Positions 56,675 to 56,702 of a DNA stretch of 64,000 nt are shown here, piece by piece. The notes under the pieces were generated by a model. That model did no database searches, was not told the origin of the DNA, and saw only the letters and a program-made list of their open reading frames with translations. The stretch is taken from NCBI RefSeq assembly GCF_003334315.1, contig NZ_QOWR01000021.1. The stretch is one strand, 5' to 3'. Made by a program: the position numbers and the translations under genes. Position 1 is the first letter of the stretch; each line of letters opens with the position of its first letter. The stretch comes from Escherichia coli. Lineage in GTDB: Bacteria > Pseudomonadota > Gammaproteobacteria > Enterobacterales > Enterobacteriaceae.

Positions 56675-56702
56675 TTAGAGTGTCTCGTTTTTGTAAAGTT
56701 CC
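56675..56702 (-). promoter_or_regulatory. Sigma-E-dependent rpoE promoter (autoregulated P2-type)
   Basis: Minus strand GGAACTT-16 nt-TCTAA matches the sigma-E consensus, about 75-100 nt upstream of the rpoE start. Confidence 0.75.

What the first reader, a model, noticed from the sequence alone, without database searches (positions are those of the whole stretch)
56675..56702. Sigma-E consensus promoter upstream of rpoE
GGAACTT-16 nt-TCTAA on the minus strand, about 75 nt upstream of the rpoE start, matches the sigma-E recognition consensus and is the expected autoregulated promoter of the rpoE-rseABC operon.
Basis: partly seen in the sequence, partly recalled or inferred. Interest (0 to 1): 0.25.

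Follow-up and report, generated by a model that had tools for sequence, protein, structure and literature searches.

The report
Known sigma-E promoter of rpoE

Summary
The motif is real. GGAACTT (56702-56696), a 16-nt spacer and TCTAA (56679-56675) lie on the minus strand. It is the only exact match in the window, and none of 100 shuffles produced one. The window is E. coli chromosome and is identical to K-12 MG1655 across this site. The site is the long-known sigma-E-dependent, autoregulated rpoE promoter: "P2" in the 1995 nomenclature, "P6" in the 2016 six-promoter scheme, and "rpoEp3" for the Salmonella orthologue. The published start site is -75 from the ATG, which is window 56667/56668. 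I fetched 116 rpoE loci using only the rpoE coding start. Of these, 95 carry the motif with at most 1 mismatch, against 0.2% of shuffles. The hexamers are near-invariant while the spacer varies freely. The overlapping rseD reading frame does not explain this conservation. Published SELEX and ChIP-chip data place sigma-E holoenzyme here. Verdict: confirmed, already known, low interest. One side observation may be new. The first 9 nt of the sigma-E-initiated transcript (GCUUGCUCA) are conserved and complementary to the rpoE start codon region. This predicts a 5'-end/start-codon helix, which I could not find described in the papers I could read.

The parts
56715..56719 (-). A-tract (AAAAA) 13-17 nt upstream of the -35 element, about -47 to -51 from the start site; a likely proximal UP-element subsite
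   Evidence: A is present in 70-85% of 103 distinct orthologous promoters at these positions. The block is also conserved in a MAFFT alignment made without reference to the motif. Rhodius 2006 reports conserved A/T-rich elements at -48/-49 of sigma-E promoters. The UP function itself is inferred.
56696..56702 (-). -35 element GGAACTT
   Evidence: Exact match to the sigma-E consensus. GAACTT is invariant across 23 genera in the MAFFT alignment made without reference to the motif.
56680..56695 (-). 16-nt spacer TACAAAAACGAGACAC
   Evidence: 16 nt is the strongly preferred spacer length for sigma-E. The sequence varies freely across species, averaging 0.31 bits per position. The exception is the last two bases, AC, next to the -10 element.
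56675..56679 (-). -10 element TCTAA (consensus TCAAA/TCNAA)
   Evidence: T, C and the two A positions are 88-100% conserved, while the middle base varies among T, C and A.
56669..56674 (-). Discriminator CCCTTT (6 nt)
   Evidence: Sigma-E promoters prefer a 5/6-nt discriminator. The sequence here is not conserved (0.28 bits).
56667..56668 (-). Transcription start of the sigma-E-dependent promoter (G at 56668 or C at 56667)
   Evidence: The published start is -75 relative to the rpoE ATG (citing Klein 2016), which gives 56667 or 56668 depending on counting convention. G at 56668 fits the purine-start and 6-nt discriminator rules. It is also where cross-species conservation resumes. The start was not measured here.
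56660..56668 (-). Conserved initial transcribed block GCTTGCTCA (+1 to +9); the proposed 5' arm of a helix with the rpoE start region
   Evidence: 72-93% conserved per position. Complementary to 56591-56583, and paired in both the MFE and the centroid structure. Pairing probability is about 1.0 in E. coli. It is the best complement of the start region in 108 of 114 loci.
56583..56592 (-). rpoE start codon (56592-56590) and the proposed 3' arm UGAGCGAGC (56591-56583)
   Evidence: Searches give the start codon. ATGAGCGAGCAG is invariant in 90 Enterobacterales sequences, although the search pattern allowed AGY, GAR and CAR at the synonymous positions.
56605..56610 (-). rpoE Shine-Dalgarno sequence GGGGAG
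   Evidence: The GGAGA core is invariant across genera. CsrA is reported to bind sites overlapping the SD and the start codon. A stem linking the SD and AUG has been reported as polyamine-responsive.
56589..56744 (-). rseD (rpoE leader peptide, 51 codons). Its stop codon overlaps the rpoE ATG, and the sigma-E promoter lies inside it (codons 15-24)
   Evidence: RefSeq annotation in strain W5-6 and in K-12. The translation is shown.
56017..56592 (-). rpoE coding sequence, the first gene transcribed from this promoter; rseA, rseB and rseC follow downstream to 53902
   Evidence: ORF list and annotation.

Best explanation
This is the sigma-E-dependent, positively autoregulated promoter of the rpoE-rseABC operon of E. 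coli. It was called rpoE P2 in the 1995 papers and is rpoE P6 in the 2016 six-promoter scheme. Envelope stress triggers proteolysis of the anti-sigma factor RseA and frees sigma-E. RNA polymerase carrying sigma-E then binds GGAACTT (-35) and TCTAA (-10), which are 16 bp apart, probably helped by an upstream A-tract. It starts transcription 7-8 nt downstream, at 56668/56667, producing a leader of about 76 nt followed by rpoE, rseA, rseB and rseC. This gives positive feedback on sigma-E and co-produces its inhibitors RseA and RseB, which gives negative feedback. Shown here: the sequence, its uniqueness, its position, and its conservation across Enterobacterales and beyond. Taken from the literature: sigma-E dependence, the start site, and binding in vitro and in vivo. 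Inferred: the UP-element role of the A-tract.
For: The exact consensus match is unique in the window, with 0 of 100 shuffles matching. The locus is rseD-rpoE-rseABC of E. coli and is identical to K-12 over the promoter. It is 100% identical over 71 nt in 5255 of 5426 complete E. coli genomes. The consensus and geometry agree with 28 mapped sigma-E promoters. Reviews identify the autoregulated promoter (old P2, now P6) with its start at -75. Genomic SELEX with RpoE holoenzyme gives a peak in the rpoE-nadB spacer. ChIP-chip sigma-24 binding regions SigE_38 and SigE_40 cover the site. The Salmonella orthologue, rpoEp3, is ChIP-validated. For a phylogenetic footprint I used loci fetched only by the rpoE coding start. 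Of 116 such loci, 95 have the motif with at most 1 mismatch within 200 nt upstream, against 0.2% of shuffles. In Enterobacterales the motif sits at a near-constant 77-86 nt from the ATG. The hexamers are invariant while the spacer and discriminator vary freely.
Against: No experiment was run here, so sigma-E dependence and the start site rest on secondary citations. The primary papers (Rouviere 1995, Raina 1995, Klein 2016) were not readable. The published -75 could mean 56667 (a C) or 56668 (a G). Three TSS and promoter supplements that I searched had no entry at this coordinate. The anchored information-content profile is partly circular for the hexamers, because sequences were aligned on the motif. 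The motif-free alignment and the shuffle control address this.
Confidence: 0.97

Rival explanations
1. The motif is conserved because it lies inside the rseD coding sequence (codons Gly-Thr-Leu ... Thr-Leu-Thr). On this view the conservation reflects peptide constraint and not promoter function.
For: The promoter does lie within the annotated 51-codon rseD ORF.
Against: An ATG-initiated ORF in the rseD frame that begins upstream of the -35 element exists in only 21 of 114 loci. No ATG-initiated ORF exists in that frame at all in 58 of 114 loci. The motif, by contrast, is present in nearly all of them. The 16 nt between the hexamers would also be coding, yet they vary freely, and insertions and deletions shift the frame between genera.
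Confidence: 0.01
2. The match is a chance resemblance, and the true sigma-E-dependent start of rpoE lies elsewhere in the nadB-rpoE spacer.
For: With 2 mismatches allowed, the pattern is no more frequent in the window than chance predicts. The spacer holds five other promoters.
Against: An exact 12-base match is expected about 0.008 times in 128 kb of searched strand, and 0 of 100 shuffles produced one. The published start at -75 falls 7-8 nt after the -10 element. The motif is conserved at a fixed distance in about 100 species. No other site with at most 1 mismatch exists in the spacer.
Confidence: 0.01
3. The site is used mainly by another holoenzyme (sigma-70 or sigma-S), and sigma-E is only a minor contributor.
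For: ChIP-chip sigma-70 and sigma-S binding regions also overlap this part of the spacer. [quoted passage not shown]
Against: The sigma-70 consensus scan finds no TTGACA/TATAAT-type site in 56500-57100. The sigma-70 and sigma-S ChIP regions are hundreds of bp wide, and the separately mapped upstream promoters P1-P5 account for them. The conserved bases are exactly those of the sigma-E consensus.
Confidence: 0.01

Closest known systems
E. coli K-12 rpoE P2 (Rouviere/Raina 1995), renamed rpoE P6 (Klein et al. 2016)
   Same: It is the same element. The window is identical to MG1655 from the -35 element through the rpoE start (NC_000913.3 complement 2,710,095-2,710,122). It has the same start at -75 and the same autoregulatory role.
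   Different: Nothing differs in the promoter itself. The window strain differs from K-12 at three bases further upstream, at 56944 and 56909-56910 near the P2/P3 region.
Salmonella Typhimurium rpoEp3
   Same: It is the orthologous sigma-E-dependent promoter upstream of rpoE. It is bound by sigma-E in ChIP-seq and ChIP-qPCR and is used as a positive control. Citrobacter and other close relatives keep GGAACTT-N16-TCTAA at the same distance from the ATG.
   Different: The promoter numbering differs. [quoted passage not shown] No Salmonella locus was among those fetched here.
Sigma-E regulon promoter consensus (Rhodius et al. 2006; 28 mapped and 60 library promoters)
   Same: GGAACTT, a 16-nt spacer, TCNAA, a 6-nt discriminator, a purine start and an A/T-rich region upstream.
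   Different: The -10 element is TCTAA rather than TCAAA. The initial transcribed block GCTTGCTCA is far more conserved than the weak conservation around +1 reported for the regulon as a whole.
Autoregulated ECF sigma promoters in general (for example Vibrio cholerae rpoE P2 and Pseudomonas algU; these two examples are from my own knowledge)
   Same: An ECF sigma factor transcribes its own operon together with its anti-sigma factor from an AAC-containing -35 element. Vibrionaceae and Alteromonadaceae loci fetched here keep (G/T/C)GAACTT-N16-TC(A/T)(T/C/A)(A/T) upstream of rpoE.
   Different: In those taxa the -10 variants (TCATA, TCACA, TCTAT) and the leader lengths (46-166 nt) differ from the enterobacterial arrangement.

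Membership tests
Sigma-E (RpoE, sigma-24) dependent promoter | -35 element matching GGAACTT | tested here: met
   7 of 7 bases match at 56702-56696. The consensus is from Rhodius 2006.
Sigma-E (RpoE, sigma-24) dependent promoter | -10 element matching TCAAA/TCNAA | tested here: met
   TCTAA lies at 56679-56675. T, C, A and A are conserved across species, and the middle base is variable.
Sigma-E (RpoE, sigma-24) dependent promoter | Spacer of 15-19 nt, with 16 nt strongly preferred | tested here: met
   The spacer is 16 nt. Among the orthologous loci, 106 of the 110 anchored on the motif also use 16 nt.
Sigma-E (RpoE, sigma-24) dependent promoter | Start site 5-6 nt after the -10 element, preferably a purine | tested here: inconclusive
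   The sequence offers G at 56668 after a 6-nt discriminator. The published -75 maps to 56667 or 56668 depending on counting convention. The start was not measured here.
Sigma-E (RpoE, sigma-24) dependent promoter | A/T-rich upstream (UP) sequence around -48/-49 | tested here: met
   AAAAA lies at 56719-56715, about -51 to -47, and is conserved in 70-85% of orthologues.
Sigma-E (RpoE, sigma-24) dependent promoter | Transcription depends on sigma-E in vivo and is carried out by sigma-E holoenzyme in vitro | not testable with these tools
   Literature only: autoregulation by sigma-E holoenzyme, a holoenzyme SELEX peak in the rpoE-nadB spacer, ChIP-chip sigma-24 regions and Salmonella ChIP.
Autoregulated ECF sigma / anti-sigma operon | The promoter drives the sigma factor gene co-transcribed with its anti-sigma factor | tested here: met
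   rpoE (56592-56017) is followed on the same strand by rseA, rseB and rseC. No terminator-like site was found in the scanned stretch 56500-57100, which covers the leader and the first part of rpoE.

The most novel reading that the evidence does not exclude
The promoter is known, but the RNA it makes may carry an undescribed control element. The first 9 nt of the sigma-E-initiated transcript (GCUUGCUCA, 56668-56660) are complementary to nt 2-10 of the rpoE ORF (UGAGCGAGC, 56591-56583). The transcript would therefore begin with a flush 5'-terminal helix that sequesters the rpoE start codon. This could damp the positive feedback loop by making translation depend on melting of the helix. The melting agent could be a ribosome finishing the upstream reading frame that stops at the UGA overlapping the AUG. 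The helix could also protect the mRNA 5' end from 5'-end-dependent decay. Transcripts from this promoter lack the rseD start codon. They retain only an internal in-frame ATG (56648), which gives a 19-codon upstream ORF.
Probability: 0.3. Interest if true: 0.45.

Novelty: already known. Interest (0 to 1): 0.1.

Why it matters
The promoter is one of the founding examples of ECF sigma factor autoregulation and is a standard reporter of envelope stress, so recognising it adds nothing new. It is useful as a positive control for the scan, because a tool-free reader located a real 28-bp regulatory element to the base. The side observation would matter modestly if it holds. It would add a post-transcriptional brake specific to the sigma-E-initiated rpoE mRNA. 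It would also give a structural reason for the reported translational coupling between rseD and rpoE.

Tried and rejected
- Primary papers were not held: Klein 2016, Yakhnin 2017, Rouviere 1995 and Terui 2009. Start-site and nomenclature facts therefore come from reviews.
- A full-text search for the promoter sequence string found nothing.
- The tables and supplements of Rhodius 2006 and 2012 were not held.
- The TSS supplements of Kim 2012 and Ettwiller 2016 had no hit at the expected coordinates, and some of these files may be incomplete as stored.
- Rfam at a permissive threshold gave no match in 56000-57100.
- The sigma-70 and terminator scan of the spacer found nothing, although five further promoters are published there. 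This shows the limits of that scan.
- The covariation test of the proposed 5'-end/start-codon helix was uninformative, because the 3' arm never varies: 0 two-sided changes in helix 1, and the shuffle control showed no excess.
- The overall folding energy of the leader is not unusual (z = -0.98).
- I considered and rejected rseD coding constraint as the cause of motif conservation.
- My attempt to locate the second sigma-E promoter, rseA P3 inside rpoE, gave only a weak candidate: AGAACTT at 56237-56231, with ACTGA 15 nt downstream. Its position is about 8 nt off the published 228-nt leader, and I left it unresolved.

Full report
**What is in the sequence**

On the minus strand the window reads GGAACTT (56702-56696), TACAAAAACGAGACAC (16 nt, 56695-56680), then TCTAA (56679-56675). 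CCCTTT follows, and then GCTTGCTCA starting at 56668. The exact pattern GGAACTT-N16-TCTAA occurs once in the window on both strands, and none of 100 dinucleotide-preserving shuffles contains it. With two mismatches allowed the pattern is no commoner than chance. A looser scan (spacer 15-17, TCNAA, at most 1 mismatch) finds only one other site, far away at 22280-22306 on the + strand.

**Context**

The downstream ORFs on the minus strand are rpoE (ATG at 56592), rseA, rseB, rseC and lepA. nadB diverges on the plus strand from 57000. A 701-nt query matches all 5426 complete E. coli genomes once each on the chromosome, and the features annotated under the match are rpoE, rseD and nadB. Annotation of the best hit and of K-12 MG1655 shows rseD ("rpoE leader peptide", 51 codons). 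This maps to window 56744-56589, and its stop codon overlaps the rpoE ATG. The window is identical to MG1655 from 56908 down through the rpoE start. It differs at three bases further upstream, at 56944 and 56909-56910. Window position equals the NC_000913.3 position minus 2,653,420, so the motif is K-12 complement 2,710,095-2,710,122. Over 71 nt centred on the promoter, 5255 of 5426 genomes are identical.

**Distance correction**

The last base of TCTAA is 83 nt upstream of the A of the ATG.

**What the literature says**

- Rhodius et al. 2006 derived the sigma-E consensus from 28 mapped starts. The -35 element is GGAACTT and the -10 element is TCAAA. The spacer is 15-19 nt with 16 strongly preferred, and the discriminator is 5/6 nt. 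There is a purine start and A/T-rich elements near -48/-49 and -57/-58.
- Reviews by Klein and Raina and a 2021 ECF review state that rpoE is positively autoregulated from a promoter recognised by sigma-E holoenzyme.
- They also state that rpoE has six promoters, with starts at -381 (P1), -327 (P2 and P3), -218 (P4), -153 (P5) and -75 (P6).
- P6 is the autoregulated one and corresponds to the original "P2". P2 is sigma-54/QseF-dependent and P3 is sigma-70/RcsB-dependent.
- A start at -75 is window 56667 or 56668. G at 56668 fits a 6-nt discriminator and a purine start.
- Genomic SELEX with RpoE holoenzyme lists a peak between rpoE and nadB at 2,708,134.
- ChIP-chip lists sigma-24 binding regions 2,708,009-2,708,609 and 2,707,554-2,708,154. 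In those older K-12 coordinates the motif falls at about 2,708,117-2,708,144. The 1,978-bp offset between coordinate versions is from my own knowledge.
- In Salmonella the orthologous site is called rpoE promoter 3. It is used as a ChIP positive control for sigma-E binding.

**Independent test: phylogenetic footprint**

I fetched loci from the species-representative genome collection with a degenerate pattern for the first eight codons of rpoE only. They cover Escherichia, Citrobacter, Enterobacter, Klebsiella, Pantoea, Erwinia, Serratia, Yersinia, Photorhabdus, Xenorhabdus, Proteus, Providencia, Morganella, Edwardsiella, Hafnia, Budvicia, Plesiomonas, Vibrionaceae, Alteromonadaceae and Pasteurellaceae.

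- In the 200 nt upstream of the ATG, 56 of 116 loci have a perfect GGAACTT-N15-17-TCNAA and 39 more have one mismatch, usually TGAACTT. Among shuffled upstream regions, 0.2% reach at most 1 mismatch.
- In Enterobacterales the -10 element ends 77-86 nt before the ATG.
- A MAFFT alignment of 23 genera, made without reference to the motif, shows GAACTT invariant and TC.AA nearly so. An upstream A-tract, a block GCTTGCTCA at the start site and the GGAGA Shine-Dalgarno core are also conserved. The spacer and discriminator are essentially random.
- The anchored information profile gives 1.79 bits per position for the -35 element, 1.48 for the -10 element, 0.31 for the spacer and 0.28 for the discriminator. 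That profile is partly circular for the hexamers, but not for the A-tract or the +1 block.

**Rival: coding constraint**

The promoter sits inside rseD (codons 15-24, Gly-Thr-Leu to Thr-Leu-Thr). An ATG-initiated ORF in that frame starting upstream of the -35 element exists in only 21 of 114 loci. In 58 of 114 loci there is no ATG-initiated ORF in the frame at all. Peptide constraint therefore cannot explain the conservation of the hexamers. A sigma-70-type consensus scan finds nothing in 56500-57100.

**Conclusion on the finding**

It is the known sigma-E autoregulated promoter, read correctly to the base. It works as in the textbook. Sigma-E released from RseA binds the two elements and starts transcription at 56668/56667. 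It transcribes rpoE together with rseABC, which gives positive feedback on the sigma factor and resupplies its inhibitors. Sigma-E dependence and the start site come from the literature and were not tested here.

**Consequences of the coordinates (my inference)**

The start lies in codon 26 of rseD, so transcripts from this promoter lack the rseD start codon (56744). [quoted passage not shown] The only in-frame ATG left on the transcript is at 56648. It gives a 19-codon ORF (MEWRFDSAWKFGLGRLYLG) that ends at the UGA overlapping the rpoE AUG. Among 93 distinct enterobacterial-type leaders, 33 have an ATG-initiated ORF in this frame within the leader, and 23 of those are exactly 19 codons long. 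The signal is suggestive but not universal.

**A conserved 5'-end/start-codon complementarity**

The conserved +1 to +9 block GCUUGCUCA is the reverse complement, with one G.U pair, of UGAGCGAGC, which is nt 2-10 of the rpoE ORF.

- Folding +1 to +109 puts this helix in both the MFE and the centroid structures. It sits next to a hairpin that pairs the Shine-Dalgarno G-run with CCUC just before the AUG. The overall energy is not unusual (z = -0.98).
- In 108 of 114 loci the 16-mer at the start site is the single best complement of the start-codon region among all 16-mers in the 200 nt upstream. Duplex energies are typically -13 to -22 kcal/mol, against control means near -5.
- In partition-function folds of +1 to ATG+60, at least 5 of the first 10 nt pair with the start-codon window in 80 of 109 distinct transcripts. 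The E. coli value is 8.3.
- RNAalifold recovers the helix.
- True covariation cannot be assessed. The 3' arm is invariant, including the synonymous positions of AGC and GAG that my search pattern left free.
- Changes in the 5' arm are mostly wobble-compatible: U/C opposite G and A/G opposite U, with about 30 cells kept against about 10 broken. The sense-strand G.U pairs argue for an RNA-level feature and against a DNA palindrome.
- A stem linking the SD and AUG of rpoE mRNA has been described in polyamine work, and CsrA sites overlap the SD and AUG.
- I found no description of the long-range helix in the papers I could search. The most relevant primary papers were not readable, so I cannot claim it is new.

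**Other context**

- A perfect TATAAT at 56758-56753 precedes the published P5 start (-153, which is 56745). That start is one base before the rseD ATG, so P5 may make an essentially leaderless rseD mRNA.
- The window's A at 56944 replaces a K-12 G in what I infer to be the GG of a GG-N10-GC sigma-54 element for P2 (K-12 GCGGATAAACACCTGCT). At least 2771 of 5412 matching E. coli genomes are identical to the window over the 61 nt around it. Other Escherichia sequences also lack the GG. Either my placement of the element is wrong, or the sigma-54 promoter is polymorphic.

**Verdict**

The finding is already known and of low interest as given.

Noticed in passing
window 56668-56660 and 56591-56583 (minus strand): The first 9 nt of the sigma-E-initiated transcript (GCUUGCUCA) are conserved and complementary to nt 2-10 of the rpoE ORF (UGAGCGAGC). 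This predicts a flush 5'-terminal helix that sequesters the start codon. It is the best complement of the start region in 108 of 114 loci and is predicted in 80 of 109 distinct leaders. There is no two-sided covariation because the 3' arm never varies.
   Followed up: partly
window 56744-56589 versus the start site at 56668: The sigma-E promoter lies inside the annotated rseD ORF, so transcripts from it lack the rseD start codon and its first 25 codons. Full-length rseD can be made only from the upstream promoters. The full-length ORF is present in only 21 of 114 related loci.
   Followed up: partly
window 56648-56589 (minus strand): An internal in-frame ATG gives a 19-codon upstream ORF (MEWRFDSAWKFGLGRLYLG) ending at the UGA that overlaps the rpoE AUG. 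Among 93 distinct enterobacterial leaders, 33 have an ATG-initiated ORF in this frame within the leader, and 23 of those are exactly 19 codons long, including Serratia, Yersinia and Photorhabdus.
   Followed up: partly
window 56590-56581 (rpoE codons 1-4): ATGAGCGAGCAG is invariant in 90 Enterobacterales sequences at synonymous sites that the search pattern left free (AGY, GAR; CAR differs in 3 sequences). Codons 5-7 vary. This suggests an extra RNA-level constraint on the start region.
   Followed up: no
window 56758-56753 and 56745-56742 (minus strand): A perfect TATAAT hexamer precedes the published P5 start (-153, which is 56745). That start is 1 nt before the rseD ATG at 56744, so P5 may produce an essentially leaderless rseD mRNA. 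The sigma-70 scan tool did not report this promoter because no -35 match is present.
   Followed up: no
window 56944 (also 56909-56910): The window differs from K-12 at a base that I infer to be the second G of the -24 GG of the sigma-54-dependent rpoE P2 (K-12 GCGGATAAACACCTGCT; window GCGAAT...). About half of complete E. coli genomes are identical to the window over the surrounding 61 nt, although these were not checked base by base at 56944. E. albertii also lacks the GG. My placement of the sigma-54 element is unverified.
   Followed up: partly
window 56237-56205 (minus strand, inside rpoE): The second published sigma-E promoter, rseA P3, should lie here. The best candidate is AGAACTT (56237-56231), then 15 nt, then ACTGA. 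It fails the strict consensus scan, and its expected start is about 8 nt off the published 228-nt leader.
   Followed up: no
window 56640-56626 (minus strand): A small hairpin in the rpoE leader (GCGUU...AGCGC in the E. coli MFE) has a pair with compensatory changes across species: CG in 59 sequences, UA in 10 and UG in 6.
   Followed up: no
window 22280-22306 (+ strand): This is the only other sigma-E-like site in the window with at most 1 mismatch: GCAACTT, 15 nt, TCGAA. It is probably a chance match, and its context was not examined.
   Followed up: no
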